From an uncultured Clostridia bacterium (GTDB lineage Bacteria > Bacillota > Clostridia > UBA1381), in NCBI GenBank assembly GCA_934487205.1, contig CAKSRS010000002.1, positions 29,116-93,115 of the forward strand: a stretch of DNA of 64,000 nucleotides. Reading direction: 5' to 3'. Under the pieces are notes generated by a model. That model saw nothing but the letters and a program-made list of their open reading frames with translations. It had not been told where the DNA came from and searched no databases. The translations under genes were made by a program, and so were the position numbers. This document shows positions 4,778 to 20,035 of the stretch, piece after piece (the stretch's first letter is position 1; every line of letters begins with the position of its first letter).

Positions 4778-5032
4778 TTGATTCAGGAGTATAGCATCAA
4801 GAGTGCAGAAGATATTCAAGAGGCATTAAAAGACCTGTTGGGTGGAACGATTCAAAAAATGATGGAAACTGAACTTGACGAACATTTGGGATATAGTGAA
4901 TATGAGCGCAGCGACAATCCCGATTACCGGAACGGCGTAAAAAAGAAGAAATTGCGCAGTTCATACGGCGAAATACCGATTGGTGTTCCGCAAGACCGTG
5001 ACGGTGATATTCAGCATTTAATTACATTTTAA
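4778..5032 (+). pseudogene. IS256-family transposase fragment (N-terminal about 80 aa only)
   Basis: LKDLLGGTIQKMMETELDEHLGYSEYERS..YRNGVKKKKLRSSYGEIPIGVPQDRDG is the conserved N-terminal region of IS256/mutator-type transposases. The ORF ends after 84 aa and no DDE domain follows. Confidence 0.7.
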
Positions 5033-5061
5033 AAACATTTTATATTTGCAAAAAAAACGTG

Positions 5062-5089
5062 TTGACAAGTGTTTTTTCAGTGATATAAT
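5062..5089 (+). promoter_or_regulatory. Sigma-A type promoter upstream of the esterase gene
   Basis: TTGACA (5062-5067), 16-nt spacer ending in TGA, TATAAT (5084-5089). Confidence 0.5.
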
Positions 5090-5193
5090 TGAAACTATAT
5101 GGAAAACCATGTGAATTTAAAACTGATAAAGCGCCAAGAAAATCGCTTAAACCCTATATGGTATGGCGGATATTTTGATAAAGGAGATTAATT

Positions 5194-5937
5194 ATGGAAC
5201 TGAAAGACATATATTACACACGAAATAACATACCGGAGCAGTCGCTTGATATATTTTTACCGGATAATGCAAAGGGTGAAATACCTGTGTTTATATATTT
5301 TCACGGCGGCGGGCTGGAGTCCGGCAGAAAAGAAGAAATCCCGCCGCAGCATTTTGTTGAAAAGAATGTGGGAGTAGTATCAGTTAACTACCGTATGTAT
5401 CCCGATTACAGGTATCCGGATTTTTTATGGGACTGCGCTGCAAGCGTAAAATGGGTAACAGACAACATCGGGAACTATGCGAATGTCTCAAAAATATATG
5501 TAGGCGGTTCATCGGCAGGTGCATACATTGCAATGATGCTTTATTTTGACAGCAGATATTTTTCGACATACGGTGTTGATATTAACAAAATATCCGGATT
5601 TGTTTTCAATGCCGGTCAGCCGACGACGCATTATAACGTGCTTAGAGAACGCGGCATCGACTCAAGAAGGTGTATTATTGATGAGGCGGCTCCGCTGTTT
5701 CATATTGAGGAATACAAAAACCAACCTCCTGTGTTGATTTTTTGTGCGGATAATGATATGACTAACCGATATGAGCAAACGCTGCTGTTAATCGGAACAT
5801 TAAAGCATATGAATTATCCAGAAGAAAATATACAGTTTGAATATTTACGTGGTCACTGCCATTGTGATTACATCCAAGACGCAAAAGTATTTGCTGACAG
5901 GATTCTTGATTTTATAAACCGAAATAAGAGAAACTAA
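5194..5937 (+). CDS. Alpha/beta-hydrolase esterase (carbohydrate esterase/lipase-like)
   Basis: 247 aa. HGGG oxyanion motif (FHGGGLESG), GxSxG nucleophile elbow (GGSSAGA), and a GGAG RBS upstream. Confidence 0.8.
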   Translation: MELKDIYYTRNNIPEQSLDIFLPDNAKGEIPVFIYFHGGGLESGRKEEIPPQHFVEKNVGVVSVNYRMYPDYRYPDFLWDCAASVKWVTDNIGNYANVSKIYVGGSSAGAYIAMMLYFDSRYFSTYGVDINKISGFVFNAGQPTTHYNVLRERGIDSRRCIIDEAAPLFHIEEYKNQPPVLIFCADNDMTNRYEQTLLLIGTLKHMNYPEENIQFEYLRGHCHCDYIQDAKVFADRILDFINRNKRN

Positions 5938-6045
5938 GGATAAGGTTATTTGCTTTGAATATCGGAATTATCCGATGTTGCTGTAAAAGCACTGTTCAAA
6001 GTTTCATTTTGAAGTCGAAATAATACTGCCTGTGGAGGATAATAT

Positions 6046-6750
6046 ATGAAAATTTTATCAATAGGAAACAGTTTTTCTGAAGATGCACAACGGTATCTGC
6101 ACGCAATAGCGGAAGCCAACGGTAAAAAACTGACGTGTGCCAATCTGTATATCGGGGGCTGTTCATTAAGACAGCATTACATAAATCTATCAGACAACGA
6201 AAAAAACTACATTTTTCAATTTAACGGTGAGAACACGAATATTAAAATTTCAATCAAAGATGCGGTAAAAAGCAATGAATGGGATTACATAACGCTTCAG
6301 CAGGCAAGCCATGAGAGTTTTGATATCAATAACTATACACCATACCTCGAGAGCATAACAAAATGGTTGAGATTAAGATGTCCGAACACGAAAATATTGC
6401 TGCACCAGACATGGGCATATCCGCAAGACAGGGAAAGACTTTCGGAAGTTGGTTTTAAAACTACTGAGGAGATGTTTGCGGCAGTTAAAGACGCGTATAA
6501 TAAAGCCGAAAAATTGATAAATGCGGATAATATGATAAAAAGCGGCGACGCTATGCTTAAAGCATACAGGCTTAATCCTGACATTGTTTACCGCGATGCG
6601 ATTCATGCAAGCTACGGTTTTGGCAGATACCTCGTAGGCTGCGTTTGGTATAAGGCATTATTCAATCAAAAACCAAAAATTCAAATCAGCAGCTTTGATG
6701 AAAATATAACCGATGAGGGTTTAAAATTGATAGACAATATTATGCAGTAA
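6046..6750 (+). CDS. DUF4886-like SGNH-fold hydrolase
   Basis: 234 aa. The N-terminal KILSIGNSFSED motif is typical of DUF4886/SGNH-like proteins. GGAGG-type RBS (tggaggataatat ATG). Confidence 0.6.
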   Translation: MKILSIGNSFSEDAQRYLHAIAEANGKKLTCANLYIGGCSLRQHYINLSDNEKNYIFQFNGENTNIKISIKDAVKSNEWDYITLQQASHESFDINNYTPYLESITKWLRLRCPNTKILLHQTWAYPQDRERLSEVGFKTTEEMFAAVKDAYNKAEKLINADNMIKSGDAMLKAYRLNPDIVYRDAIHASYGFGRYLVGCVWYKALFNQKPKIQISSFDENITDEGLKLIDNIMQ

Positions 6751-6791
6751 ACCTGCGGTCGTTACAAACATAAACAGAGGTGAAGCTAATT

Positions 6792-6953
6792 ATGTATAAA
6801 CAAAAACTCGGATTTTCCATGTTTGGATCATATGAACACGGTATGTCAAGCGCCGTTAAGCTCATCAAAGACTGTAAGTTTGACGCGATCTCTCCCGTAT
6901 GGACAAATGATTACAACATAGAAGAAATTGCAAATGTACGAGTTACTTGGTAG
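6792..6953 (+). pseudogene. 5' stub (53 codons) of a gene truncated at the left boundary of repeat module copy A
   Basis: ATG 6792 with an AGAGGTG RBS. It reads MYKQKLGFSMFGSYEHGMSSAVKLIKDCKFDAISPVW.. and stops at the TAG formed inside GGTAGG, exactly where the repeat begins. Identity is uncertain (sugar-phosphate isomerase/TIM-barrel-like N-terminus). Confidence 0.4.
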
Positions 6954-6969
6954 GTGTAACACAATTTTT

Positions 6970-7057
6970 TTATACAAACCAAACAGGCTGCCCGATACGA
7001 GCAGCCTGTTTAGTCCACAAAAATTCCCATAGGTCTTTTTGAGATAATCAACAACAT
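6970..7057 (-). ncRNA. Candidate about 85-nt small RNA driven by P1 and ending at an intrinsic terminator (copy A)
   Basis: The perfect consensus promoter P1 lies 5-7 nt upstream. The transcript would end at hairpin 7011-6981 followed by UUUGGUUUGU. The sequence is identical in all three copies. Confidence 0.4.
6981..7011 (-). terminator. Intrinsic terminator hairpin of the P1 RNA (11-bp stem)
   Basis: AAACAGGCUGC/GCAGCCUGUUU stem followed by a U-rich tail on the minus strand. Copy B carries one substitution, which gives G.U on the minus-strand RNA but A-C on the plus strand. Confidence 0.6.
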
Positions 7058-7061
7058 TTTT

Positions 7062-7090
7062 ATTATACTACTATATGTTGTATTTGTCAA
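7062..7090 (-). promoter_or_regulatory. P1: perfect consensus sigma-A promoter (copy A)
   Basis: Minus strand TTGACA (7090-7085), 17-nt spacer, TATAAT (7067-7062). Conserved in copies B and C. Confidence 0.65.
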
Positions 7091-7197
7091 TAGTTTTTTA
7101 CAAATATATTTCATTATTTTCATTTTTGTTGCAACATAATTACTGCACGTTTGCACATGTGCGATTTGGGGCTTTTGTCTTTTTTCGTAAAAAGGCA

Positions 7198-7226
7198 TTG
7201 ACAAAACTGTAAAACAGGCGTATAAT
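7198..7226 (+). promoter_or_regulatory. P2: perfect consensus sigma-A promoter (copy A)
   Basis: TTGACA (7198-7203), 17-nt spacer, TATAAT (7221-7226). Both hexamers are conserved in copy B although the spacer carries 3 substitutions. Confidence 0.65.
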
Positions 7227-7232
7227 TACAAT

Positions 7233-7376
7233 AGAAAAAGGCAAAACCTCAAACGGTTATGCCAAGAAATCAGTTATTTATGCAATAACCGTCTTGCCAG
7301 AGGCGGTTATTGTGCGTTTATGGGAAATATTATCATTAAGATAATAAATACAAAAAGCGCTATGAGCAGCTTTTTC
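7233..7376 (+). ncRNA. Candidate about 145-nt structured RNA from P2, with an 18-nt hypervariable single-stranded segment (copy A)
   Basis: Hairpin HP1 is 7240-7263, the variable segment is 7265-7282, HP2 is 7283-7312, HP3 is 7328-7346, and a terminator-like hairpin plus U5 is at 7352-7375. Substitutions in HP1 and HP2 between copies are compensatory or wobble only for plus-strand RNA. Confidence 0.45.
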
Positions 7377-7520
7377 GCCATAAGTACAATGCTTACTTTT
7401 CATAAGCATACCCCCTTTCATAGACTCGGCATTTCTGCCTGTGAATATAAAAGTGTGGGCATAACCGCCGGTGTGAACACCGTTAAGAAATCTCGCCTTT
7501 AACATCGGATTACTCCGACA
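7350..7520 (-). ncRNA. Candidate about 170-nt structured RNA from P3 (copy A)
   Basis: Minus-strand hairpins carry GNRA loops. UCGGA-GUAA-UCCGA (7518-7505) has loop GCAA in copy B. GGCA-GAAA-UGCC is at 7439-7428. CGGUG-UUCA-CACCG is also present. It contains an AAAGGGGG Shine-Dalgarno 7 nt before AUG 7403. Confidence 0.4.
7352..7375. terminator. Candidate bidirectional terminator between the convergent P2 and P3 transcripts
   Basis: AAAAAGCGCUAUGAGCAGCUUUUU: an A-tract, a short GC hairpin and a U-tract. The same architecture reads on both strands. Confidence 0.35.
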
Positions 7521-7526
7521 AATCCT

Positions 7527-7555
7527 ATTATACACTATTATACGATGTTTTTCAA
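7527..7555 (-). promoter_or_regulatory. P3: near-consensus sigma-A promoter (copy A)
   Basis: Minus strand TTGAAA (7555-7550), 17-nt spacer, TATAAT (7532-7527). Conserved in copy B. Confidence 0.55.
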
Positions 7556-7633
7556 GAGATTTTGCAGAGAGCAATCAAATTGGTTGATAATGACTTATGC
7601 CCGCGGCGGACATTTTGACAGAATATGATAAAA

Positions 7634-8209
7634 TCACTTCGTTTCAATCAACAATTTTCTTGTCATTCCCGACCATGCTTTTGTAATTTCGTCGGTCAGA
7701 ATGGCATACTCAATACCTTTTTTAACACCTCTGTTATCCCATTCGTCCGTGAGTTCTTTTCGTACTTGAATAGCCTGCAAGCGTTGATTTATCCATTCTC
7801 TTGTATAGCCCTTTTTCAAATATGTCTCAAGAGCTCTGTCTATCGTAAGTTCCGGGTCTATCGTTTCGTCAATTCTCTCGGCACCGACTTGCGCAAGCCA
7901 TTGTTTGAACGGCTCGGCTTTGGGCGATGGAATTGACTGTATAATACGCAAAACGCCTTTTGTGTCCGACGCTTGAATTTTTCTTTTTTTTCCGTCGTGT
8001 GCAATCATTTCAACAGGGGTACAAATTGTACCCCACTTCAAATTCAGTTCAGGATCACGCTGACGCATTTTTTTGATATATTGTTTAACATCTTTGCTGT
8101 CGGTAAGTATTTCAACTATATCATAAATTGAAAAATACCATTCCTCGTGTTCGCTGTCCCACGCAGTACGGATTTTTTTATTTTCGAATATCTGTATATT
8201 ATTTTCCAT
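7634..8209 (-). CDS. Bro-N domain / DinD-like (DNA-damage-inducible protein D family) protein with a non-homologous 3' end
   Basis: 191 aa. Contains IRTAWDSEHEEWYFSIYDIVEILTDS (Bro-N) and KAEPFKQWLAQVG..ILTDEITKAWSGMT. Homology to the second dinD-like fragment (9030-9137) breaks at about 7672, just before module copy A. Confidence 0.7.
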   Translation of the reverse strand: MENNIQIFENKKIRTAWDSEHEEWYFSIYDIVEILTDSKDVKQYIKKMRQRDPELNLKWGTICTPVEMIAHDGKKRKIQASDTKGVLRIIQSIPSPKAEPFKQWLAQVGAERIDETIDPELTIDRALETYLKKGYTREWINQRLQAIQVRKELTDEWDNRGVKKGIEYAILTDEITKAWSGMTRKLLIETK

Positions 8210-8419
8210 TATGTATACCTCGTCAAAAAGGTTATTTCTAATATATCATACGTTCGTATAAAATACAAAAATATTGATTACTTTTTTTAACCACTTCCGC
8301 CCCGAACGACACCAATATAGCGTTGCCGGCTCGAAATTCGTTTTGGGCGGCTGTTTGGAAAATTATCCTTGCAATCAACAGTATGATGGTTATTTTAATC
8401 ACATAGTCGGTCTTTGGTT

Positions 8420-8977
8420 TTACATCATTTCCATTACAGACGCTATGTTATCGACCAAGAACTGCTGAGCGTCGCGGTCATACACAATAACCGAATATTC
8501 ACGGTCATCTCTTCTGCTGCGCCTTAACTCTGTTGTAATACCGATTTCATTGCCCATTTTGGTAGGTTTTTTTGTTATTTTTCCGTCGGGCATAGTTCCC
8601 ACACACAGCATTTTAACACTGATTAACCAATCTGTGAGATGTTTGTATGAAATCTTTTTCATATTCTTTTCCGCGTTGATTTCATTGATTCTCCGCGCAA
8701 TTTCGCTCATCGTTATAGACGTATCGCAAAAGCGAAACTTTTGAATTTCCTCAAAAGAAATATAAAAATTTTCCTTTGCCGTTTTCTTTTTATTAACCGT
8801 TCCGCCGTTTTCCGCCACCTGTCTTAAAACATCAGATATATAAAATAAACATCTTGAAATTTTAACATTGTTTATAATATCATTTTCCGGGATAATGGTA
8901 TTATCAAGCGGATTAATGCCGTTTGCCAGCTTATCTGTATATATTTTTGCTCTTTGTATCATCTCTAAATCCGTCAT
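8420..8977 (-). CDS. Hypothetical protein (185 aa)
   Basis: GAGGTG RBS and a clean ORF. No family was recognised. It is transcribed from the R1 outward promoter through a dinD fragment. Confidence 0.55.
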   Translation of the reverse strand: MTDLEMIQRAKIYTDKLANGINPLDNTIIPENDIINNVKISRCLFYISDVLRQVAENGGTVNKKKTAKENFYISFEEIQKFRFCDTSITMSEIARRINEINAEKNMKKISYKHLTDWLISVKMLCVGTMPDGKITKKPTKMGNEIGITTELRRSRRDDREYSVIVYDRDAQQFLVDNIASVMEMM

Positions 8978-9029
8978 TTGTACACCTCATCTTGTTTTCG
9001 TAAGTCAATCATTCCGGCACCGATTGCTA

Positions 9030-9137
9030 ATATTATCGCGCAAGGTTTCTTTCGTCAACCCTTTTAACGCTTTATACTTGCGTGTTGTCAATTCCCGACC
9101 GTGCTTTTGTACCTTCATCGGTCAGGATAGCATAATT
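9030..9137 (-). pseudogene. DinD-like C-terminal fragment (frameshifted)
   Basis: The reverse strand reads NYAILTDEGTKARSG, then in a shifted frame ELTTRKYKALKGLTKETLRDNISN. This is homologous to YAILTDEITKAWSGMT of 7634..8209 and continues past where that gene breaks off. Confidence 0.5.
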
Positions 9138-9163
9138 TTACCATGCATTTTTGTATATGTCAA
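9135..9163 (-). promoter_or_regulatory. Outward-facing promoter at the R1 end (copy B)
   Basis: Minus strand TTGACA (9163-9158), 17-nt spacer ending in TGG, TAAAAT (9140-9135). It reads into the dinD fragment and the 185-aa gene. Confidence 0.5.
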
Positions 9164-9408
9164 TAAAATAAATGATTTTCGCCATAGGCGTCTATAATAC
9201 CTTGCAACAATTTAAAATGTTTCATCTTCTATAATATGCCGCAAGCTTAAAAAATCAATTTATGATTTTACACCTTTGTCACCCGTAAGGAAACGGTAGG
9301 TAGGACACAATTTTCTTATACAAACCAAACAAGCTGCCCGAATACGAGCAGCCTGTTTAGTCCACAAAAATTCCCATAGGTCTTTTTGAGATAATCAACA
9401 ACATTTTT

Positions 9409-9437
9409 ATTATACTACTATATGTTGTATTTGTCAA
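9409..9437 (-). promoter_or_regulatory. P1 (copy B)
   Basis: TTGACA (9437-9432), 17 nt, TATAAT (9414-9409) on the minus strand. Confidence 0.6.
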
Positions 9438-9544
9438 TGGTTTTTTACAAATATATTTCATTATTTTCATTTTTGTTGCAACGCGATTACTGCATGTTTG
9501 CATATGAGCGATTTGTGGCTTTTGTCCTTTTTCGCAAAAAGGCA

Positions 9545-9573
9545 TTGACAAAACTATGAAACGGGCGTATAAT
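9545..9573 (+). promoter_or_regulatory. P2 (copy B)
   Basis: TTGACA (9545-9550), 17 nt, TATAAT (9568-9573). Confidence 0.6.
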
Positions 9574-9579
9574 TATAAT

Positions 9580-9724
9580 AGAAAAGGGCAAGACCTCAAA
9601 CGGTTATGCCACAACGCAAACTATATTAACAATAGCTGCCTGTGCCAGAGGCGGCTATTGTGCGTTTATGGGAAATATTATCATTAAGATAATAAATACA
9701 AAAAGCGCTATGAGCAGCTTTTTC
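9580..9724 (+). ncRNA. Candidate P2 RNA (copy B), with a different 18-nt variable segment
   Basis: HP1 is 9587-9610, the variable segment is 9612-9629 (CAACGCAAACTATATTAA versus AGAAATCAGTTATTTATG in copy A), and HP2 is 9630-9660. The remainder is identical to copy A. Confidence 0.45.
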
Positions 9725-9868
9725 GCCATAAGTACAATGCTTACTTTTCATAAGCATACCCCCTTTCATAGACTCGGCATTTCTGCCTGTGAATATAAAA
9801 GTGTGGGCATAACCGCCGGTGTGAACACCGTTAAGAAATCTCGCCTTTAACATCGGATTGCTCCGACA
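9698..9868 (-). ncRNA. Candidate P3 RNA (copy B)
   Basis: Same structure as copy A. The first tetraloop is GCAA instead of GUAA, so both are GNRA. Confidence 0.4.
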
Positions 9869-9874
9869 AATCCT

Positions 9875-9903
9875 ATTATACACCATTATACAATGTTTTT
9901 CAA
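9875..9903 (-). promoter_or_regulatory. P3 (copy B)
   Basis: TTGAAA (9903-9898), 17 nt, TATAAT (9880-9875) on the minus strand. Confidence 0.55.
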
Positions 9904-9992
9904 GAGATTTTGCAGCGATCAATCAAATTTGTCGATAATGACTTATGCCCGCGGCGGACATTTTGACAGGATAGCATAATTGCACCCGTTTT

Positions 9993-10304
9993 TTATAATA
10001 GCCATTTATAGTCTTGTCTGCAATCCACAACATAATCGACATAAACTGTGTTATCTTTAATTTGATAAATTAACAAATACCTTTTTGCCGCAAGTTTTTT
10101 TCTATATTTATTTGCAGGAATCTCATCACAGTTAAGCCACGGATAACTTTCAGGCATAAACTCCAAAGCTCTTATTTCGGTAATAATATCCTTATGCAGC
10201 TTTTTAGCAGTTTCAGGTGAAACATTCGCCAAAAATCTGACATGATTTACAAGCATTGATACAGCCTTGTCAGAAACTATAACATTATACTTCTTATCCG
10301 ACAT
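9993..10304 (-). CDS. Type II toxin, RelE/ParE superfamily
   Basis: 103 aa. It overlaps the upstream antitoxin by 11 nt. KYRKKLAAKRYLLIYQIKDNTVYVDYVVDCRQDY is typical of the ParE/RelE fold. Confidence 0.8.
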   Translation of the reverse strand: MSDKKYNVIVSDKAVSMLVNHVRFLANVSPETAKKLHKDIITEIRALEFMPESYPWLNCDEIPANKYRKKLAAKRYLLIYQIKDNTVYVDYVVDCRQDYKWLL

Positions 10305-10572
10305 GACTCACCCCGGACGCTGCATCGCCAAGCATTTTGTCAAGTTCATCAACCGAATACCCTTTTTTGCCCATGAACCTTTCTTCCTCTGCGGCAATAA
10401 GTTCTTCTCTTAATTTAAGCATCTTTTCCCGTCTTGAAAAGCTTTCAATATCCATAACTACCAAATCGCCCTCGCCGTTTTTCGTAAGATACACGGGTTC
10501 CCCTGTTTCTTTGCAGTAGTTGGAAATGTCATTATAATTGTTTCTGATTGCTGCCGACGGTCTGATATTCAT
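10294..10572 (-). CDS. Type II antitoxin, Phd/YefM family
   Basis: The start is taken at ATG 10572 (GAGGAG RBS). MNIRPSAAIRNNYNDISNYCKETGEPVYLTKNGEGDLVVMDIESF is the Phd/YefM N-domain. Confidence 0.8.
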   Translation of the reverse strand: MNIRPSAAIRNNYNDISNYCKETGEPVYLTKNGEGDLVVMDIESFSRREKMLKLREELIAAEEERFMGKKGYSVDELDKMLGDAASGVSHVG

Positions 10573-10627
10573 AAAATCAACTCCTCGCATAAATATTATA
10601 TATTTATTATACATTTTTGTTACTATA

Positions 10628-10656
10628 ATTATACCATTCATATCCGTATATGTCAA
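10628..10656 (-). promoter_or_regulatory. Outward-facing R1 promoter driving phd-relE (copy C)
   Basis: Minus strand TTGACA (10656-10651), 17-nt spacer ending in TGG, TATAAT (10633-10628). Confidence 0.55.
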
Positions 10657-10902
10657 TAATATAGTTGATTTTCGTTACAAGCGTCTATAATACCTTGCGG
10701 CAATTTAAAATGTTTCATCTTCTATAATATGCCGCAAGCTTAAAAAATCAATTTATGATTTTACACCTTTGTCCCCCGTAAGGAAACGGTAGGTAGGGCA
10801 CAATTTTTCTTATACAAACCAAACAGGCTGCCCGAATACGAGCAGCCTGTTTAGTCCACAAAAATTCCCATAGGTCTTTTTGAGATAATCAACAACATTT
10901 TT

Positions 10903-10931
10903 ATTATACTACTATATGTTGTATTTGTCAA
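10903..10931 (-). promoter_or_regulatory. P1 (copy C)
   Basis: TTGACA (10931-10926), 17 nt, TATAAT (10908-10903). The downstream small-RNA sequence and the terminator hairpin at 10821-10852 are intact. Confidence 0.6.
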
Positions 10932-11020
10932 TGGTTTTTTACAAATATATTTCATTATTTTCATTTTTGTTGCAATATAATTACCACGTGTTTGCATTTG
11001 TGCAGTTTGTGGCTTTTGTC

Positions 11021-11181
11021 ATCAGCTCTGGACATCAAGGGGTGCGGACATATTCTTGGACAGTTTATACTGATAATCCAAGACTATGTCTGTACTCAAC
11101 CGGACTCATATATCCGAGGGACTGTTTTATTCGTTCTACATTATACCAATCAATGTATGTATTGATTTCTTTGTGTATTGC
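11021..11181 (-). mobile_element. IS3-family remnant: terminal repeat plus the last about 38 codons of the transposase
   Basis: The reverse strand reads ..AIHKEINTYIDWYNVERIKQSLGYMSPVEYRHSLGLSV*, the conserved IS3 integrase C-terminus. The end sequence is GATGTCCAGAGCTGAT. Confidence 0.65.
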
Positions 11182-11185
11182 TAAC

Positions 11186-11443
11186 CTATTTACCGTCTCT
11201 TTCAAGTCGTACTTCTTTCACCAAAACCACAACATCATCAATGGTATTTAGTCCCAGCCTGTCTGCCTCGCCCGTAAAATCTTTTTGTATTTTTTCAAAA
11301 GCATACACCGCTGCGTTTTCAATACGTACCCGACCGTCCTGCTCAATAAAGCAAATCTTATCCCCTGTTTTTAGATTCAGCCGTTTTCTTATCGCAGTAA
11401 GTATCGTTACTCGTCCGCCCGGCATTACACATACCGTTTCCAT
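11186..11443 (-). CDS. AbrB/MazE/SpoVT-family DNA-binding protein (antitoxin-like)
   Basis: 85 aa. GGRVTILTAIRKRLNLKTGDKICFIEQDGRVRIE is a swapped-hairpin (looped-hinge helix) motif. Confidence 0.7.
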   Translation of the reverse strand: METVCVMPGGRVTILTAIRKRLNLKTGDKICFIEQDGRVRIENAAVYAFEKIQKDFTGEADRLGLNTIDDVVVLVKEVRLERDGK

Positions 11444-11512
11444 AATTGAACCACCTCACGCAAATTTTTTGGTAAAATATATTTCCACCGGGTGGAACTA
11501 CCACAAATATAT

Positions 11513-12916
11513 TTACTGCATAACCTGCCAATAGCCCTTCTTATCCGAGCCTATACGGCAGATAATATTCTTCCTTTTGAGAGATTTTATCAATTCACCG
11601 ACGGTTTTTCGGCTTACATCTAATTTTCCGGATAAATCATCATATGTGTAAGCCGGATCTTCCAATAAGAGTGCAATGAGCCGATTTTCAGTTTCAGTCA
11701 CCTTTTCAGTCACCCTACCAGTCACCTTTTCAGTCACCCTACCAGTCACCTTTTCAGTCACCCTACCAGTCACCTTTTCAGTCACCCTATCGGCTGATGT
11801 ACGCACAATTCTATCCTCGGGTGCCGAAAACTTTATCATTATATCCTGCGGGTGAACCGTAAATTCCGGTTGAAAAACGCCATCATTTTTGCATACAGTA
11901 CAGATTTTTTCTATTCCGCGTCCCCAGCTTTCAATAAAGCCAGCAAGATAAAATACGTAAGCTATGTTGGGGTTGAACGGCTGTGATGCATGTTTCTCAA
12001 AAAGATTTTCAACTGTCCAGTTTTCCGGCAAATGACCACAATTTGCAATATACAGTTTATCATTGTAAACGCTTATTTGAATTGGAATCCCCCTTGAATA
12101 ATCCTTATGACAAAGAGCATTCAAAAGTGCTTCACGCAAAGCTTCTTCCGGAACAAAATACCGTTCAATGCGTTGCATACCGACATAGTATATCTTCGCT
12201 TTCATATATTTTAAATAAATAAGCTCAACTATTTTATCAATTTGATCCAATATAGAGCCGTGAATTTCATCTTGATATACAAGGTCTGCATCGGTTTCAA
12301 AAAAACCTATTTTTACATAAGCGCCCAACTGCCATTTTTCCGGATCATTACTGAAAAGCAGCATAGCCGCATTTGTTAAATACCCGTCCTTTACCAAGTG
12401 AAGTTTCTCAAGCATAACAAATTTATCTTCCGATAAAACCGATTTGTTTATTCGTCCTTTGTTAACTGCCCATTGCTTAAATCGCTTAACGACCCCATCG
12501 TCGACATCGTCTGCTGTAAACGTAGGCAATGGCATACTGTCCCAGGTGACTCCCCGCCGTCTCATAATAAAGGTTTCCAGTTCAGGACCGGATAGCTTTT
12601 GATTTGTGCTACCGCTTCTGTAATAGTATGAGCCTTTGCAGGAGATAGCAATAGGGTAAGGTGGCACGTCTATTTCAACGTACTCACAATTGCCGTCGGT
12701 AAGAGAATTTATGTTAACAATAATCCCCATTGCATCACGAATTTTGTTCGGAAGATCTTCAAGCAGTTTTTTCGCATTTTTCACCCCTACAACTTCGCCG
12801 GAATCATTCATACCAATATACAGTTTTCCCCCCTGTGCATTTGCAAATCCACATATCCATGCAAGATAATCGTCTTTCCAGACTTCTTTCCACTCAACAT
12901 TTTGTTTTTCACGCAT
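11513..12916 (-). CDS. AlbA_2 (Schlafen-like divergent AAA) plus HATPase_c_4-type putative transcriptional regulator with a C-terminal wHTH
   Basis: 467 aa. NVEWKEVWKDDYLAWICGFANAQGGKLYIG is an AlbA_2 N-domain. ALREALLNALCHKDYS is the ATPase-like domain. It contains the in-frame repeat (RVTEKVTG)x4. Confidence 0.7.
   Translation of the reverse strand: MREKQNVEWKEVWKDDYLAWICGFANAQGGKLYIGMNDSGEVVGVKNAKKLLEDLPNKIRDAMGIIVNINSLTDGNCEYVEIDVPPYPIAISCKGSYYYRSGSTNQKLSGPELETFIMRRRGVTWDSMPLPTFTADDVDDGVVKRFKQWAVNKGRINKSVLSEDKFVMLEKLHLVKDGYLTNAAMLLFSNDPEKWQLGAYVKIGFFETDADLVYQDEIHGSILDQIDKIVELIYLKYMKAKIYYVGMQRIERYFVPEEALREALLNALCHKDYSRGIPIQISVYNDKLYIANCGHLPENWTVENLFEKHASQPFNPNIAYVFYLAGFIESWGRGIEKICTVCKNDGVFQPEFTVHPQDIMIKFSAPEDRIVRTSADRVTEKVTGRVTEKVTGRVTEKVTGRVTEKVTETENRLIALLLEDPAYTYDDLSGKLDVSRKTVGELIKSLKRKNIICRIGSDKKGYWQVMQ
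11695..11790. repeat. Perfect 24-bp tandem repeat x4 inside the AlbA_2-type gene
   Basis: CAGTCACCTTTTCAGTCACCCTAC at 11695, 11719, 11743 and 11767 (the last unit ends in T). It encodes RVTEKVTG units. Confidence 0.9.
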
Positions 12917-13318
12917 TTTATCATCTCCGGCTCATTTTTCTATAGTATACCACAAACTGTTAAAAAAATCAATTCGTGATATTTGTATGTTGAATATTTG
13001 ATTTCCCAATCCTGAAGATTCTCATTATGAGTTCCTCGAAATAGGATATCTCAGTTTTGTAATATCTCTTATGCGTGATGCATCTCAAATTTCAAACTGT
13101 CCTCATATTCCTCCAACTCCCCCTATCACAGAACGTCCCCTAACCTTATCTCCTCTTTATCTTGGTTTCCCCCCGTTCCTGCCCGCGGTCCGTGCATGAT
13201 AAGACCGCGGGCGGTTCCTGTGCTTACAAAGTACGGTCAAATTCGGCTTTTGCATTTGCCGTCCCCCGTAAGCACATTAGTGCGACAAATTTGCAAATCG
13301 CCCGATTTTGCAAACCCC

Positions 13319-13345
13319 GCAAGCCGCATTACTGCTTGCTTTTTT
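13319..13345 (+). terminator. Intrinsic terminator-like hairpin in a non-coding tract
   Basis: GCAAGC-cgcattact-GCTTGC followed by TTTTTT. Confidence 0.45.
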
Positions 13346-13349
13346 GGGT

Positions 13350-13430
13350 GTTCCTTACGGGGGAAAGTGCGTGAATTTTTCACCCCTGTAGCCAACATTC
13401 ATTTTACACCTTTGTCACCCGTAAGGAAAC
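13350..13430. repeat. Imperfect about 80-bp palindrome made from two inverted copies of the R1-end motif
   Basis: GTTCCTTACGGGGGAAAGTGCGTGAA (13350-13375) against the reverse complement of TTTTACACCTTTGTCACCCGTAAGGAAAC (13402-13430). Confidence 0.6.
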
Positions 13431-13452
13431 GGTAGTATGACACAATTTTTTT
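13401..13452. repeat. Fourth, partial copy of the R1/R2 junction sequence
   Basis: ATTTTACACCTTTGTCACCCGTAAGGAAACGGTAG..GACACAATTTTT matches 9265-9315 and 10758-10810, then diverges. Confidence 0.75.
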
Positions 13453-13466
13453 GCGTATTTTTGTCA

Positions 13467-13489
13467 GCTCTGGACATGATGTCCAGAGC
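13467..13489. repeat. Abutted IS3-type terminal repeats (perfect 11-bp palindrome arms)
   Basis: GCTCTGGACAT-G-ATGTCCAGAGC. It is the same end sequence as the IS3 remnant at 11021-11040. Confidence 0.6.
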
Positions 13490-13496
13490 CCGCCAT

Positions 13497-13916
13497 TTAA
13501 GGTTTTAGCCTTTGCCGCATTAACTCAATCGCCATATGGTGATAGCAGTAATAGTTTGCGTAACTTGTAATTTTTACCTTTTCCCTCGTCTTTTCATAAC
13601 GCTCATTTGCCTTGTAAACTTTATCACAAAAATATGTATAATACAGAACCCAATAATATATCTCACCCGCTTCCTCATTTTCGCGTATATCTCGTACCGC
13701 TTTGTTTATCAGCTTTACCACTTTTATCGTGAGCTTACGTTCATTGCCGGTATAATTGATGTCATTGATGCCGGTTTCTTCTGCAAATTCTTCCGGTGAG
13801 CACAATATTTCCGGCTCATATCCAACCTCTTTTTCTACTTTTTGCAATTCTCTTGCAAGCTTCATATCGCGGTAGTTGTTTAGCAACAATACTACCCGTT
13901 TTTGTTCTTCTGTCAA
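13497..13916 (-). CDS. ArpU/sigma-70 region-4-like small transcriptional regulator (paralog 2)
   Basis: The start is taken at TTG 13916 (GGAGGAGG RBS, 7-nt spacing), directly after the upstream stop. The YYWVLYYTYF motif is shared with the neighbouring gene. Confidence 0.55.
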   Translation of the reverse strand: MTEEQKRVVLLLNNYRDMKLARELQKVEKEVGYEPEILCSPEEFAEETGINDINYTGNERKLTIKVVKLINKAVRDIRENEEAGEIYYWVLYYTYFCDKVYKANERYEKTREKVKITSYANYYCYHHMAIELMRQRLKP

Positions 13917-13918
13917 TT

Positions 13919-14449
13919 TTATACCTCCTCCGGCTTTACAAGCGTTTTCGTTATTTCCATACACTCTTTTGAGGTGTATCCCCACAGCATTGTGCTTAAT
14001 AGATTTATTGCCTGTCTGCGGTAGTTAAAGTACGTCTGCCACGATACATAGTACTGTTTTTGCGCAATCTTGTCCACAATCTGGTCGACGCTTTCTAAAG
14101 GCTTTTCGCACAGGTATGTATAATACAAAACCCAGTACATCATCTCGCCTTTTTGATGTTTTCTGCGGATAATTTCGACCGCACGGTCAATAAGCTGCAG
14201 CATCTTACGGTTACGTTCCATTGTTCGAACCTGTTCCTCAATTTTTGTATTCATCAAATCCGCTCCGGCAGCGTATGACATATCCAAAAATTCTGTCATT
14301 TTACAGCCCGTTTCAAATTCAAAATTGACCTCCGCCTGCATCGCCGATACCTCAATGCTCCACACGACATCGCGGTATTTTTTGAGCAGCAGCTCCGTGT
14401 TGTGATACAAAAATTCGTTGTTTTTCTCGATTGTGCTTTTCTTTTCCAT
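13919..14449 (-). CDS. ArpU/sigma-70 region-4-like small transcriptional regulator (paralog 1)
   Basis: 176 aa. It carries the MYWVLYYTYL motif. Its start overlaps the RepA_N stop by 1 nt. Confidence 0.55.
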   Translation of the reverse strand: MEKKSTIEKNNEFLYHNTELLLKKYRDVVWSIEVSAMQAEVNFEFETGCKMTEFLDMSYAAGADLMNTKIEEQVRTMERNRKMLQLIDRAVEIIRRKHQKGEMMYWVLYYTYLCEKPLESVDQIVDKIAQKQYYVSWQTYFNYRRQAINLLSTMLWGYTSKECMEITKTLVKPEEV

Positions 14450-15387
14450 TAGTTATCGTCCTTTCTGAAATAATTCTTGTTAAATTTTGATTGATAATAG
14501 TGATTCATTGTGTCCGGGGCGTTATACAGCATCGTCAAAATATAGCTTTTGTAATTGCGAATTTTTGTGCTGTTCTCGTCCAGACAGTCGATTACATACA
14601 CGATGTGCATATAATCGAGTTTTAAGAGCTTTCTTTTTACCACCTCCTTTGGCACTTGCATACTGTTGACATTGATTTTATCGTCAAAGCTGCATATTGC
14701 GTCGACTATGATATTTACAAAGCCGTCGATTTTCTCGGCAGCGTATTGCTGAATTAAGATGTCATACTCGATATTGGTTCTGATTACGTCCCTGTATTCC
14801 TCTCTTTCCCTCTCTAAGGCGGCAAATGAAATGCGTGAGGAAGAAGATATATCAGTTTTATTCAAATCTGTATTATTAATATCAGTATTATTAGAGTCGG
14901 ATATGCCGAAGTCAAGAGTTCGGTTTTTCAGAAGTGCAGACTTCGGTTTTTCAGAAGTCAAGACTTCGGCATTTTCGCCTGACTTCGGTTTTTCAGAAGT
15001 CTGGACTTCGGCTGAGTTATCAACACTTTGGATTGAATTTTGATTGTCCGTAAAATTTAAAACATAAATAATAACCGGCTTACCTAAGCCCTGCTTTTTG
15101 CGTTCTATCAAAATCCCGTCCAATTCTTTTAATAACTTCACACCTTTGTCCTTGCCGATTGATAAATAATCCGTGATTTCCTCAAGTGTGAAATATATGT
15201 AAACTCGGTTATCATCATCGACCCAGTTATTGCGAACCGACAAACTCATTCTGTCGAGCATTAAACCGTACAAAACTTTTGCCTCCACTGAAATTCCGGC
15301 ATACCGGCTGTCGGTAAACAATAATTTCGGTATTCGATAAAATGCGAACTGTTCCGATTCACTTTTGTAAAAAAAATTATTTTTCAT
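14449..15387 (-). CDS. RepA_N-family plasmid replication initiator
   Basis: The start is taken at ATG 15387 (GAGGAGG RBS). FYRIPKLLFTDSRYAGISVEAKVLYGLMLDRMSLS..YIYFTLEEI is the RepA_N N-terminal domain. The central linker is repetitive. Confidence 0.8.
   Translation of the reverse strand: MKNNFFYKSESEQFAFYRIPKLLFTDSRYAGISVEAKVLYGLMLDRMSLSVRNNWVDDDNRVYIYFTLEEITDYLSIGKDKGVKLLKELDGILIERKKQGLGKPVIIYVLNFTDNQNSIQSVDNSAEVQTSEKPKSGENAEVLTSEKPKSALLKNRTLDFGISDSNNTDINNTDLNKTDISSSSRISFAALEREREEYRDVIRTNIEYDILIQQYAAEKIDGFVNIIVDAICSFDDKINVNSMQVPKEVVKRKLLKLDYMHIVYVIDCLDENSTKIRNYKSYILTMLYNAPDTMNHYYQSKFNKNYFRKDDN
14908..15016. repeat. Five about 23-bp direct repeats inside repA (candidate iterons / internal origin)
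   Basis: The (A/T/G)GACTTCGG cores recur at 14916, 14939, 14962, 14981 and 15004, with GTTTTTCAGAAGT following three of them. Confidence 0.6.
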
Positions 15388-15413
15388 TGCCCATTCCTCC
15401 TCATTTTTGCACG

Positions 15414-15445
15414 AAAAAAGCAGACACACTTAATTGCATGTCTGC
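15414..15445 (-). terminator. Intrinsic terminator downstream of the cotJC 3' segment
   Basis: Minus strand GCAGACA-ugcaauuaagug-UGUCUGC followed by UUUUUU. Confidence 0.6.
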
Positions 15446-15483
15446 ATAACCAGAATTTGAAAACAGCCCGTTCCCGCCAAATG

Positions 15484-15731
15484 TTATTTATACAAATATG
15501 CAGCATCTGCTGCCAAATCCTCAAACAAATTAGTTATCGGGTCGCCCGTCGACGCAATAGATGCCGACGTGAACGGCGCGCCCTGTGCGCTCTGCGGGAA
15601 AACGCCGTTTCCGTTATCGGCATAATATTCGGGTGAGTGTCCGTTAAGCCAATCCTTTCCGGACGCTCCGTCCGACAGCTGATACACAAGCGTGCCCACC
15701 ATTTCCAGATGCCCCAACTCCTCAGTACCTA
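15484..15731 (-). pseudogene. cotJC: cotJC 3' segment (manganese-catalase-family spore coat protein, split gene)
   Basis: It reads (G)TEELGHLEMVGTLVYQL..GDPITNLFEDLAAD.., which continues the 5' segment at 24101-24285 in frame. Confidence 0.8.
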
Positions 15732-16021
15732 CCTGTTATCCAAAATTGGTATTCTGTCTTAAATGCCCTAAATACTGCACGAATGGGACAATCTGACAAG
15801 GCTATGTATAGTAATGTAAAGGTTACTGTTTTTCTTCCGGTATGATGAATTTAATATTACCTTTTAACAAAAGGTATCATTCCCAAAACTCCCACAAACC
15901 TAACTCTCGTAATGGTTTCAGGATTTTTGAGATTAAAAACTTAATAAAAACACAATTTGAATATTACCTTATGTTCAATAACTGAATGAAAGGTAATATT
16001 TTTCTTTTTGCAAAAAAACGG

Positions 16022-16050
16022 TGTACATTTCATCACAAGCGATATATAAT
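16022..16050 (+). promoter_or_regulatory. Promoter of the tyrosine recombinase gene
   Basis: TGTACA, 17 nt, TATAAT, preceded by AAAACGG. A 9-bp inverted repeat TAATTGTAA/TTACAATTA lies just downstream. Confidence 0.45.
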
Positions 16051-16088
16051 TGTAAAAAATAAAGTTACAATTAAAGGAGCATAAGCAT

Positions 16089-16664
16089 ATGGCTTTACAA
16101 AAAGAGGTTGAACCCATTAAGAACACAAGAGATATTAACAAAATCAAGCAGTATTTATACGGAAAAGAAAACAAGAGGGATTACTGTATATTTGTAGTCG
16201 GTATCAATGTCGGATTAAGGGCAGGGGACCTATTATCACTCAAAATAAAGGACATTACAGACGGAAACATAATATTTGATACTGTAACCATTAAAGAACA
16301 GAAAACGGGCAAAACAAGGAATTTTGCATTAAATAAAAACGCTAAGGAGTCAATAAAAATATATCTTAACTCTTTAACGGATTATGACTTTGAAGATTAT
16401 CTTTTTAAAAGCAGAAAAGGCGGTCATTTAGGGGTAAGACCGTTACATCATATAATTAAGACACTTACAAAGGATTTAGGGATTAAGGGTAATTTCGGGA
16501 CACATACATTAAGAAAAACTATGGCTTATCACAGATACATAAATAATGTGCCGTTAGAAACACTCCAAAAGCTCCTCAATCACTCGTCAAGTGCAATTAC
16601 ATTAAGATATATAGGCATTACTCAAAAAGTGATTATAGACTGCTATAATGCAGTAAATTTATGA
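16089..16664 (+). CDS. Small tyrosine site-specific recombinase (phage integrase family)
   Basis: 191 aa. GLRAGDLLSLK, HTLRKTMAYH and LNHSSSAITLRYI match the R..H-x-x-R..Y catalytic boxes. Confidence 0.75.
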   Translation: MALQKEVEPIKNTRDINKIKQYLYGKENKRDYCIFVVGINVGLRAGDLLSLKIKDITDGNIIFDTVTIKEQKTGKTRNFALNKNAKESIKIYLNSLTDYDFEDYLFKSRKGGHLGVRPLHHIIKTLTKDLGIKGNFGTHTLRKTMAYHRYINNVPLETLQKLLNHSSSAITLRYIGITQKVIIDCYNAVNL

Positions 16665-16665
16665 A

Positions 16666-17475
16666 ATGAGGTTTGGTATTATGTTATTTACAGTCAGAAA
16701 TAATGCGTTCGGTGAAAGTTTACCGAAGAACATAAAAATAGTTAAAAATAAAAAATACGGAATTATGAATGAATTAAACGGCATATATATTTTGCCCGAA
16801 GAATATGACAATATTTTTCTTTACGGTATCAATGTATTTGCCTTGCATAAAAACGGAAAAATCGGATTGTGCAGAATTGAAGATGAAAAGCTTGTTATCC
16901 TTTGTGAGTGTAAATATGATGTGATAGACAATTACAATCATGATTTATTTTTAAGCAATGATGGTGAAACTCTATATTTTAACTCAAATACAAAAGAAGT
17001 CAGAATATTTAAAGAAATTGTAACCGATATGATGTATTTATACGGATATGACAAAAATTATCAATATATCATTCATCAGGAGTCGGGAAAGGTTATCTAT
17101 AAGAAAGAGTTAAACAAATACAATAAATCCTATTATGTTTATTGCGGAGAAAGTGAAAAAGGTGCGGTATTTTACGATACATCATTCAGTACACTTATCT
17201 ATCCGACAGACAAGGGTTATATGCCGTATGAATATCCCTTAAATCACCCTGTAATCGTCAATAAGCATAACGTAATGAATATAATTGACGGCGAAAACGG
17301 TATTGGTATAATTGATTCCGAGGGCAACAGTATTATAGAAAATAATTATGATGAAATTACTGTCGAGCTAAAAATTACGGCGAAAAATAAAAATGAACGT
17401 GTAGAAAAAATAATAAAAATCCCCAATAACACCTTTACAAAAGATAAAGTATCGGATATCGGGGATTGGATTTAA
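16666..17475 (+). CDS. WG-repeat (KWG) containing protein
   Basis: 269 aa. The start is 2 nt after the integrase stop. Repeated KYGI.N..G..I.P.EYD units. Confidence 0.55.
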   Translation: MRFGIMLFTVRNNAFGESLPKNIKIVKNKKYGIMNELNGIYILPEEYDNIFLYGINVFALHKNGKIGLCRIEDEKLVILCECKYDVIDNYNHDLFLSNDGETLYFNSNTKEVRIFKEIVTDMMYLYGYDKNYQYIIHQESGKVIYKKELNKYNKSYYVYCGESEKGAVFYDTSFSTLIYPTDKGYMPYEYPLNHPVIVNKHNVMNIIDGENGIGIIDSEGNSIIENNYDEITVELKITAKNKNERVEKIIKIPNNTFTKDKVSDIGDWI

Positions 17476-17518
17476 TACACATAGAAGAAGCCGGTTATAT
17501 CGAAAAAAGAAACAGACT

Positions 17519-17704: not shown

Positions 17705-17793
17705 AGTATCACCTCTTACTAAATATTATAAATGCAGATAGTAATTTTATAAACACTATATTTATGCAATTTTATATTGTGTGCAATATGCAC

Positions 17794-20032: not shown

Positions 20033-20035
20033 TGT

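What the first reader, a model, noticed from the sequence alone, without database searches (positions are those of the whole stretch)
6949..13500. Mosaic cassette region with recurrent breakpoints at a GGTAG(G) / GACACAATTTT junction motif
Between a truncated gene (6792-6953) and the RepA_N module the DNA is a patchwork. It runs: module A; a dinD-like gene with a foreign 3' end; a 185-aa gene; a dinD fragment; module B; a 23-bp dinD scrap (9970-9992); relE-phd; module C; an IS3 remnant; the AbrB-like and AlbA_2-type genes; and finally a solitary R1-end motif (13401-13452). Homology starts or stops within a few bases of ..AACGGTAG|GTAGGACACAATTTT.. at 6949, 9295, 10789 and 13431. That would be expected for a recombination site. 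All cassette genes point the same way (minus strand), as in integron-like arrays. No integrase is adjacent, and the repeats are far longer than attC sites.
Basis: partly seen in the sequence, partly recalled or inferred. Interest (0 to 1): 0.6.

Follow-up and report, generated by a model that had tools for sequence, protein, structure and literature searches.

The report
Patchwork island of repeated toxin-antitoxin modules
This stretch is the decayed cargo end of an integrated plasmid-like element, in which a promoter-dense module carrying a tiny membrane-toxin gene with its antisense RNA was copied three times between defence genes. The copies look like products of ordinary sloppy recombination, not of an integron-like cassette system.

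Summary
The repeats and the patchwork are real. The recurrent breakpoint is not.

Only copy A (6949) truly breaks at GGTAG. Positions 9295 and 10789 lie inside continuous repeats. At 13431 the homology runs on for another 18 nt.

The shared junction is a 57-nt patch. In eight other loci it is an uninterrupted part of the non-coding tail of a 2.4-kb RepA_N backbone block.

The repeat is a composite of four units:
- (a) A 445-nt type I toxin-antitoxin-like unit encoding the 24-aa peptide MAKKLLIALFVFIILMIIFPINAQ. It is present in 113 of 164 genomes of the family. This scan had already flagged the same family on another genome.
- (b) A small-RNA gene.
- (c) The 57-nt patch.
- (d) A double outward promoter.

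Copies B and C share a scar of dinD-derived DNA inside promoter P2, so the block was copied whole rather than captured twice. Three other metagenome assemblies carry the identical arrangement. No recombinase belongs to the island, and the patch does not fold like attC.

Best reading: a mosaic defence and addiction island built by segmental duplication and microhomology-mediated recombination. Interest is modest.

The parts
6755..6948 (+). Left-most island DNA, holding a 53-57-codon ORF (6780-6953) of unknown origin. Homology to the sister genome G152 stops at the DUF4886 stop codon (about 6752).
   Evidence: synteny ends at 6752. (no family and no real homologue).
6949..6971 (.). Copy A, the cut half of the 57-nt patch (unit c). 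This is the only true breakpoint at GGTAG.
6972..7177 (-). Copy A, unit b, a small-RNA gene. It has a 12/12 consensus promoter (7062-7090), an RNA of about 85 nt and a terminator hairpin (6981-7011).
7165..7665 (.). Copy A, unit a, a type I TA-like unit. Features: plus-strand promoter 7198-7226; minus-strand promoter 7527-7555; Shine-Dalgarno 7410-7419; SD-led ORF0 7278-7403(-); 24-aa hydrophobic peptide ORF 7307-7381(-). The flank up to about 7665 is shared with L009.
7634..8209 (-). Bro-N / PDC-S13-like (dinD-like) gene. It is truncated, and its last ~10 codons come from the flank of the TA unit.
8420..8977 (-). 185-aa ORF with no family hit.
9000..9158 (-). dinD-like 3' pseudogene fragment. 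Its upstream end supplies the -10 box and spacer of promoter P2.
9159..9264 (-). Copy B, unit d, two outward promoters: P2 (9135-9163, 11/12 match) and P1 (9231-9258).
9265..9321 (.). Copy B, the 57-nt patch (unit c), homologous to the RepA_N backbone tail.
9322..9524 (-). Copy B, unit b, a small-RNA gene. Promoter 9409-9437, RNA from about 9403 to 9318, 18-bp terminator 9327-9358.
   Evidence: (fold z -6.3).
9512..9966 (.). Copy B, unit a, the type I TA-like unit. Features: plus-strand promoter 9545-9573; minus-strand promoter 9875-9903; SD 9758-9767; ORF0 9626-9751(-); toxin ORF 9655-9729(-); 5' and 3' pairing boxes at 9804-9819 and 9594-9610.
9967..9995 (-). dinD scrap. It is a second, diverged copy of the dinD segment at 9123-9158; the first 15 nt are identical.
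9993..10581 (-). ParE/RelE-type toxin (9993-10304) and Phd/YefM antitoxin (10294-10581).
10625..11018 (-). Copy C, units d, c and b only. It includes P2 (10628-10656, 12/12 match, containing the same dinD-derived scar as copy B), the patch (10758-10814) and the small-RNA gene (10815-11018). There is no TA unit.
11020..11205 (-). A half palindrome (11020-11036), identical to the backbone palindrome, followed by an IS3-type transposase C-terminal remnant.
   Evidence: (D20).
11186..12916 (-). AbrB-like gene (11186-11443) and AlbA_2/Schlafen-HATPase_c_4-wHTH gene (11513-12916). The latter contains a 24-nt VNTR at 11695-11790.
12925..13400 (-). Backbone non-coding tail ('nc400'). It is a conserved multi-hairpin region ending in the outward promoter P1' (12944-12972).
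13401..13489 (.). The 57-nt patch in its native backbone context (13401-13456), followed by a perfect palindrome (13464-13489).
13497..15429 (-). Backbone genes: two small unannotated proteins (13497-13985 and 13919-14449) and a RepA_N+DUF6017 initiator (14449-15429). The initiator carries internal 23-nt repeats.
   Evidence: (D5).

Best explanation
Window 6755-15505 is a degenerate, integrase-less island derived from RepA_N-type mobile elements. It lies between a DUF4886 gene and a truncated cotJC.

Its cargo end (6949-13456) is a mosaic built from four small self-contained units:
- (a) A 445-nt type I toxin-antitoxin-like unit. It has a 24-aa membrane peptide, an overlapping Shine-Dalgarno-led ORF and a convergent antisense RNA.
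- (b) A 200-nt small-RNA gene with a consensus promoter and a strong terminator.
- (c) A 57-nt patch copied from the non-coding tail of the RepA_N backbone.
- (d) A double outward promoter.

The composite d-c-b(-a) was duplicated locally as a block. Copies B and C share the same junction scar. The mosaic then arose by homologous and microhomology-mediated (illegitimate) recombination among related elements, whose native cargo included dinD-like and AlbA_2-type genes.

Functionally (inferred):
- Each module ends transcription from upstream and restarts it into the next defence or addiction gene.
- The toxin-antitoxin units make the island hard to lose.
- GGTAG|G is only where copy A happens to be cut.
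For: SHOWN
- The repeat copies are 93-94% identical.
- The TA unit alone recurs. It is found in 113 of 164 genomes of the family, in at least 120 loci of gut Clostridia MAGs and in 5 viral contigs.
- None of 125 loci fetched from outside the family's genome set (120 MAG contigs and 5 viral contigs carrying the TA box) has units b, c or d next to the TA unit. The composite is also found nowhere else in the window's own genome.
- The toxin frame has pN/pS 0.41, against 1.34 for the SD-led ORF. The peptide is intact in 19 of 21 homologues.
- The convergent promoters match consensus at 11-12 of 12 positions.
- The 5' and 3' boxes form 13-14 base pairs in 19 of 19 sequences.
- The patch is continuous backbone DNA in L006/L058, L059, L061, L062, L040, L069, L074 and L076.
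- L069 shows the order backbone, nc400, P1', Bro-N gene. L062 shows the backbone followed by an AlbA_2 remnant. These cargo genes are therefore native to related backbones.
- B and C share dinD-derived DNA inside P2.
- The junctions of copy B carry CTG and AATTAT microhomology.
- The locus is identical in three other assemblies.

FROM THE LITERATURE
- Type I TA loci stabilise mobile elements (PMC7699646).
- The par type I TA locus (Fst toxin) is carried on plasmid pAD1 (PMC7472228); that pAD1 is a RepA_N-family replicon is my own knowledge, not checked in that paper.
Against: - The patch is conserved at about 90% in three different flank contexts, with sharp edges. A functional site could also explain this.
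- Module B is flanked by a 15-bp perfect direct repeat.
- The three comparison assemblies are near-identical strains (99.7-100%), so invariance among them is a weak test.
- No transcription, toxicity or read-level data could be obtained.
- The order of events is inferred, not shown.
Confidence: 0.6

Rival explanations
1. The 57-nt patch is a site-specific recombination (att-like) site. An unlinked recombinase uses it to stack promoter-equipped cassettes behind RepA_N backbones. This would be either an integron-like array or an accretion of integrase-less elements.
For: - The patch occurs with three different flank sets: the backbone, the module, and a solo copy 15 nt behind intact cotJC in G152.
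- All cassettes are co-oriented.
- Copy A is cut inside the patch at CCTACC. The neighbouring serine-recombinase element joins cotJC at TACCTACC.
Against: - Only one breakpoint lies inside the patch.
- The B and C edges are one event, and they share the dinD scar in P2.
- No recombinase lies in the island or in any of the six backbone copies examined.
- The tyrosine recombinase at 16089 scores 30 bits against a 265-bit cut-off for integron integrases, and it sits in a different element.
- The patch does not fold.
- There is no structural variation in three other assemblies.
- Apart from the 8-mer, the patch does not resemble attP or attB of the cotJC element.
Confidence: 0.1
2. The 829-nt composite (d-c-b-a) is itself a non-autonomous mobile element. 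It inserted into a dinD-like gene and duplicated its target.
For: - Module B lies between two copies of one dinD segment. The first 15 nt are identical (9123-9137 and 9967-9981) and a further ~12 nt are similar.
- Removing the module restores a continuous dinD reading frame.
Against: - There are no terminal inverted repeats.
- There is no other copy in the genome, in the family or next to 125 TA units elsewhere.
- Copies A and C have different ends.
- A target duplication of about 30 bp fits no common transposase.
- Both junctions show microhomology, as expected for template switching.
Confidence: 0.1
3. The patch is kept because it works as a regulatory site. It could be a promoter or operator recognised by the two small backbone proteins, or the 5' arm of the structured nc400 RNA. 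It would then be selected in every recombinant rather than being a relic.
For: - It is about 90% conserved in all contexts.
- It always sits between an upstream hairpin and downstream outward promoters.
- In the backbone it pairs with downstream nc400 sequence in a fold rich in G-U pairs on the gene-sense strand.
Against: - In copies B and C the pairing partners in nc400 are absent.
- There is no convincing sigma-70-type promoter in the patch.
- The two small proteins have no recognisable DNA-binding family.
- Only 2 of 75 predicted pairs covary.
Confidence: 0.15
4. Assembly artefact: the repeats reflect a mis-assembled or chimeric MAG contig.
For: The genome is a 113-contig assembly. One independent contig (L073) ends inside copy C.
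Against: - Two independent assemblies from other samples (L072, L075) span the whole array with the same order at 99.7-99.98% identity.
- The copies differ by about 6%, so they can be assembled unambiguously.
Confidence: 0.02

Closest known systems
Type I toxin-antitoxin loci with cis-antisense RNA: hok/mok/sok of plasmid R1, par (Fst/RNA II) of the RepA_N plasmid pAD1, and the prophage type I TAs of C. difficile (PMC7472228, PMC7699646, PMC2887945)
   Same: - A tiny hydrophobic peptide (24-28 aa, with a basic N-terminus).
- Convergent promoters giving fully or partly overlapping RNAs.
- 5'-3' long-range pairing in the toxin mRNA.
- Multicopy, and located on mobile elements.
- An SD-led ORF overlaps the toxin ORF out of frame, as mok overlaps hok.
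   Different: - There is no sequence family match. Pfam returns nothing even at E up to 10.
- The toxin ORF has no Shine-Dalgarno of its own.
- The antisense RNA appears to span the whole unit.
- A roughly 35-nt hypervariable loop differs between copies A and B.
- Toxicity and transcription are untested.
Integron cassette arrays (IntI, attI, attC)
   Same: A co-oriented array of short gene units separated by a repeated junction sequence.
   Different: - No integron integrase.
- The repeats are 0.4-0.83 kb and full of promoters and RNA genes.
- The 57-nt patch has no attC-like hairpin.
- The cassettes carry their own promoters.
- No cassette variation is seen.
Accretion arrays of integrative elements sharing att sites (ICE/CIME tandem arrays in streptococci; from my own knowledge, not checked in a paper here)
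   Same: Integrase-less pieces of related elements lie side by side and share a short conserved sequence.
   Different: - The shared sequence is internal backbone DNA in all intact relatives.
- The boundaries of the pieces do not coincide with it, except once.
Defence/addiction islands and moron-like units of plasmids and prophages
   Same: Cargo consists of defence-candidate and TA genes (PDC-S13-like, ParE-Phd, AlbA_2/Schlafen-type). Each sits between a terminator and its own promoter, and the whole is mosaic through recombination between related elements.
   Different: The insulating module is itself a long composite of two RNA genes plus a type I TA unit, repeated three times.

Membership tests
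Integron | An IntI-type tyrosine recombinase next to the array | tested here: not met
   The nearest tyrosine recombinase (16089-16664) scores 30.3 bits against a cut-off of 265 (TIGR02249). It lies inside the separate element that splits cotJC.
Integron | attC sites: imperfect palindromes that fold as hairpins at each cassette end | tested here: not met
   The patch folds no better than shuffled sequence (z -1.1 and -0.1).
Integron | Mostly promoterless cassettes read from a common Pc promoter | tested here: not met
   Nine promoters with 11-12 of 12 matches to consensus lie inside the modules.
Integron | Cassette content varies between strains | tested here: inconclusive
   The order is identical in three other assemblies, but these are 99.7-100% identical strains.
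Type I toxin-antitoxin system | A small (<60 aa) hydrophobic toxin ORF under purifying selection | tested here: met
   The peptide is MAKKLLIALFVFIILMIIFPINAQ, with pN/pS 0.41. It is intact in 19 of 21 homologues.
Type I toxin-antitoxin system | An antisense RNA gene overlapping the toxin mRNA | tested here: met
   A conserved consensus promoter on the opposite strand, followed by structured RNA. Transcription itself was not tested.
Type I toxin-antitoxin system | Toxin is toxic and is neutralised by the RNA | not testable with these tools
   This needs expression tests in a laboratory strain.
Fst/Ldr toxin family | Sequence membership | tested here: not met
   No Pfam hit at E up to 10.
RepA_N replicon | An initiator with a RepA_N domain | tested here: met
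   PF06970 at 1.6e-29 and DUF6017 at 1.5e-31.
RepA_N replicon | Repeats (origin) inside the rep gene | tested here: met
   Four copies of a 23-nt-spaced repeat at 14893-15012 (family D5). Function was not tested.
Transposon / MITE (for the 829-nt composite) | Terminal inverted repeats and further copies with target duplications | tested here: not met
   No inverted repeats at the ends by inspection of the sequence. No other composite copy was found. The single flanking repeat has microhomology at both junctions.
PDC-S13 defence candidate (Bro-N protein) | A full-length match to the profile | tested here: not met
   E-value 6e-91, but only positions 2-187 of 286 are covered. The gene is truncated.

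The most novel reading that the evidence does not exclude
The 57-nt patch is a crossover site for an unlinked recombinase that stacks promoter-equipped defence and addiction cassettes behind small RepA_N backbone blocks. That would be a Gram-positive functional analogue of an integron. The solo patch behind cotJC in the sister genome would be its empty landing site.
Probability: 0.07. Interest if true: 0.8.

Novelty: new member of a known kind. Interest (0 to 1): 0.3.

Why it matters
- The analysis removes an attractive but unsupported integron-like reading. It shows how a defence and addiction island in an uncultured gut Clostridia bacterium was assembled from reusable RNA and promoter units.
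- The most useful by-product is a clean definition of an abundant, unannotated type I toxin-antitoxin-like family. It has a 24-aa peptide, a mok-like overlapping ORF and a swappable hypervariable loop. It is present in most genomes of this family and in some viral contigs, and gene callers currently mis-annotate it as a 75-98-aa ORF.
- The small integrase-less RepA_N block, found in several copies per genome, also deserves a look of its own.

Tried and rejected
- Rfam scan of 5000-17000 at E up to 1: nothing relevant.
- The module and the backbone tail against PLSDB plasmids: no match.
- Exact junction pattern in metagenome contigs: 0 hits. A looser core pattern gave 1 hit there and 3 in genome contigs. 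Wide comparative sampling of the patch was therefore impossible.
- Search for a full-length relative of the ORF at 6792-6950: only a spurious TonB-receptor match.
- Search for an empty site at the second backbone copy next to tsf: all contigs carry the insertion.
- The SD-led 41-codon ORF and the plus-strand 60-codon ORF as the coding frame: rejected. The first has pN/pS 1.34. The second lacks a start codon in several homologues and has a stop in one.
- The patch as a pseudo-att site of the cotJC serine-recombinase element: only an 8-mer is shared.
- The closest annotated RepA_N context, a Monoglobus pectinilyticus replicon at 38.8% identity: unrelated surroundings.
As a result there was no read-level test, no genome-wide recombinase search, and no definition of the true end of the IS3 element.

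Full report
THE OBSERVATION

The repeats are real. There are three copies: A (6949 to about 7620), B (9132-9966) and C (10625-11018). They are 93-94% identical to each other. A 57-nt piece recurs alone at 13401-13456.

The listed genes are also real:
- A Bro-N/dinD-like gene that matches the defence candidate PDC-S13 but covers only 187 of its 286 profile positions.
- A 185-aa ORF without any family.
- ParE-Phd.
- An IS3-type rve_2 remnant.
- An AbrB-like gene.
- An AlbA_2/HATPase_c_4/wHTH gene.

All are on the minus strand.

The claim of four breakpoints at GGTAG|G does not hold.
- B and C are homologous on both sides of the motif.
- At 13431 there is only a 1-nt indel, and 15 of the next 17 bases still match.
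- Copy A at 6949 is the only repeat that truly ends at the motif.

CONTEXT

The window holds two separate insertions around the spore-coat gene cotJC.
- An 8.4-kb element (about 15732-24104) splits cotJC. It carries a large serine recombinase, a 191-aa tyrosine recombinase, a rolling-circle Rep and an SSB.
- The 3' end of cotJC is cut a second time, at about 15505, by the RepA_N block.
- A sister genome (G152) has cotJC intact.

The island under study runs from just after the DUF4886 gene (about 6755; synteny with G152 ends there) to 15505. It contains no recombinase.

WHAT THE JUNCTION MOTIF IS

The motif lies in a 57-nt patch. In eight other loci this patch is uninterrupted DNA. Those loci are:
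- a second copy in the window's own genome, next to tsf;
- three copies in G152;
- one copy in G032;
- three metagenome contigs.

In all of them the patch lies inside the non-coding tail of a conserved 2.4-kb block. The block reads: RepA_N+DUF6017 initiator, two small unannotated proteins, a palindrome, the patch, about 400 nt of hairpin-rich DNA, and an outward promoter.

In G152 a shortened copy of the patch also sits 15 nt behind the intact cotJC.

The patch itself has no significant fold. In the backbone it is predicted to pair with downstream tail sequence, and that partner sequence is absent from copies B and C.

WHAT THE REPEAT IS

The repeat is a composite of four units. Reading in the direction of the genes, they come in the order a, b, c, d.

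Unit a (445 nt) is a type I toxin-antitoxin-like locus.
- It has two convergent promoters matching consensus at 11-12 of 12 positions.
- It has a strong Shine-Dalgarno and ATG leading a 41-codon ORF.
- In the +1 frame 22 nt further on it encodes the 24-aa peptide MAKKLLIALFVFIILMIIFPINAQ.
- Across 21 homologues the peptide frame has pN/pS 0.41, and the SD-led frame has 1.34.
- The peptide is intact in 19 of 21. The plus-strand ORF that shadows it lacks a start codon in several homologues.
- A box in the 5' leader and a box at the 3' end can form 13-14 base pairs in all 19 sequences where both were found.
- The layout recalls hok/mok/sok. That the SD-led ORF acts like mok is my inference.

Unit a alone is abundant.
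- It is in 113 of 164 genomes of the family.
- It is in at least 120 loci of gut Clostridia MAGs from humans and ruminants.
- It is in five viral contigs.
- An earlier follow-up in this scan described the same family on another genome.
- Copies A and B differ in a roughly 35-nt loop. B's loop is one mismatch away from that of a genome in another genus, while the rest of the unit is only 89% identical.

Unit b is a small-RNA gene. It has a perfect consensus promoter, an RNA of about 85 nt and an 18-bp terminator (fold z -6.3). A 76%-identical copy in G152 shows compensatory changes in the terminator stem.

Unit c is the 57-nt patch.

Unit d carries two outward promoters that read into the next cargo gene.

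HOW THE MOSAIC AROSE

Several observations point to duplication and illegitimate recombination rather than site-specific capture.

1. The composite occurs nowhere else. It is absent from the rest of the genome, from the family, and from 125 other loci that carry unit a.

2. Copies B and C share a scar. The -10 box and spacer of promoter P2 are dinD-derived coding sequence. The d-c-b block was therefore copied as a whole after that junction had formed.

3. Module B sits between two diverged copies of one roughly 30-nt dinD segment, of which the first 15 nt are identical.
   - Both junctions show microhomology (CTG and AATTAT).
   - This fits template switching better than transposition or att-site integration.

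4. Copy C never had unit a. Its unit b abuts half of the backbone palindrome and then the IS3 remnant.

5. The 'foreign' 3' end of the Bro-N gene is the flank that accompanies unit a in another genome.

6. Related backbones carry a Bro-N gene (L069) or an AlbA_2 remnant (L062) directly behind their tails. The cargo of this island therefore looks like the pooled cargo of several related elements.

7. Three other metagenome assemblies carry the same arrangement at 99.7-100% identity.
   - They differ only in the copy number of a 24-nt repeat inside the AlbA_2 gene.
   - These strains are very close, so this is weak evidence of stability. It does exclude an assembly artefact.

LIKELY FUNCTION (INFERRED)

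- Each module ends upstream transcription and restarts it from strong promoters into the next defence or addiction gene.
- The type I TA units, together with ParE-Phd, would penalise loss of the island. This has been shown for type I TAs in C. difficile mobile elements (PMC7699646) and for par of pAD1 (PMC7472228).

WHAT REMAINS OPEN

- The patch is conserved in three flank contexts, and its role is unknown. It could be a regulatory site, the 5' arm of a structured RNA, or a crossover site.
- Copy A is cut at CCTACC. The neighbouring serine-recombinase element joins cotJC at TACCTACC. I regard this as probably chance.

VERDICT

This is an ordinary kind of object, a mosaic island of a decayed mobile element, with an interesting and abundant unannotated type I TA-like family inside it. 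The integron-like reading is not supported.

Noticed in passing
window 13030-15429; L058 (own genome contig C3), L059, L061, L062 (G152), L074: A 2.4-kb block occurs in 2 copies in this genome and 3 in a sister genome, at unrelated chromosomal sites. It holds a RepA_N+DUF6017 gene, two small genes and a structured tail. Its 5' boundary is sharp, about 25 nt before the rep start codon, and it has no integrase. How it moves is unexplained.
   Followed up: partly
window 13030-13400, minus strand: The backbone tail folds into a conserved set of long hairpins with many G-U pairs on the gene-sense strand only (75 predicted pairs, 2 covarying). There is no Rfam match. It could be a structured RNA, or a single-strand origin or transfer site.
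   Followed up: partly
L060 10017-10190 (G152 contig C5): In the sister genome, intact cotJC is followed 15 nt later by a solo copy of the patch with about 50 nt of tail. After that comes a terminator resembling the terminator of unit b. This could be a footprint or a landing site.
   Followed up: partly
window 15484-15731 and 24105-24285: cotJC is split by an 8.4-kb serine-recombinase element and is also truncated at about 15505 by the RepA_N block. Excision of the first element alone cannot restore the gene.
   Followed up: partly
window 11695-11790: The 24-nt tandem repeat (VTEKVTGR units) in the linker of the AlbA_2/HATPase_c_4 gene differs in copy number between samples. The products are 467, 459 and 451 aa.
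   Followed up: partly
window 7262-7295 versus 9609-9645: The loop between the two 5' hairpins of the antisense RNA is unrelated in copies A and B. B's version is nearly identical to that of a genome in another genus, which suggests exchange of a specificity determinant between TA units.
   Followed up: partly
window 11020-11036 and 13464-13489: The DNA abutting the IS3 remnant is an exact half of the backbone palindrome GCTCTGGACATGATGTCCAGAGC. Either the IS targets this palindrome or the palindrome derives from IS ends.
   Followed up: no
window 15728-15735 and 9295-9304: The left junction of the cotJC element (TACCTACC) shares an 8-mer with the minus strand of the GGTAGGTAGG motif. This is probably chance.
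   Followed up: partly
window 9626-9922 and 7278-7574: Gene callers on the public contigs annotate a 75-aa protein across each TA unit (L072 and L075 gene tables; the ORF listing on the window gives 98 aa for the same frame). The conserved product is instead the 24-aa peptide in another frame.
   Followed up: yes
window 4778-5032: A fragment of a Mutator/IS256-type transposase (PF00872, 2.6e-14) lies among the carbohydrate-esterase genes to the left of the island.
   Followed up: no
window 14893-15012: Four repeats spaced 23 nt apart lie inside the RepA_N gene, as expected for the internal origin of RepA_N replicons.
   Followed up: no
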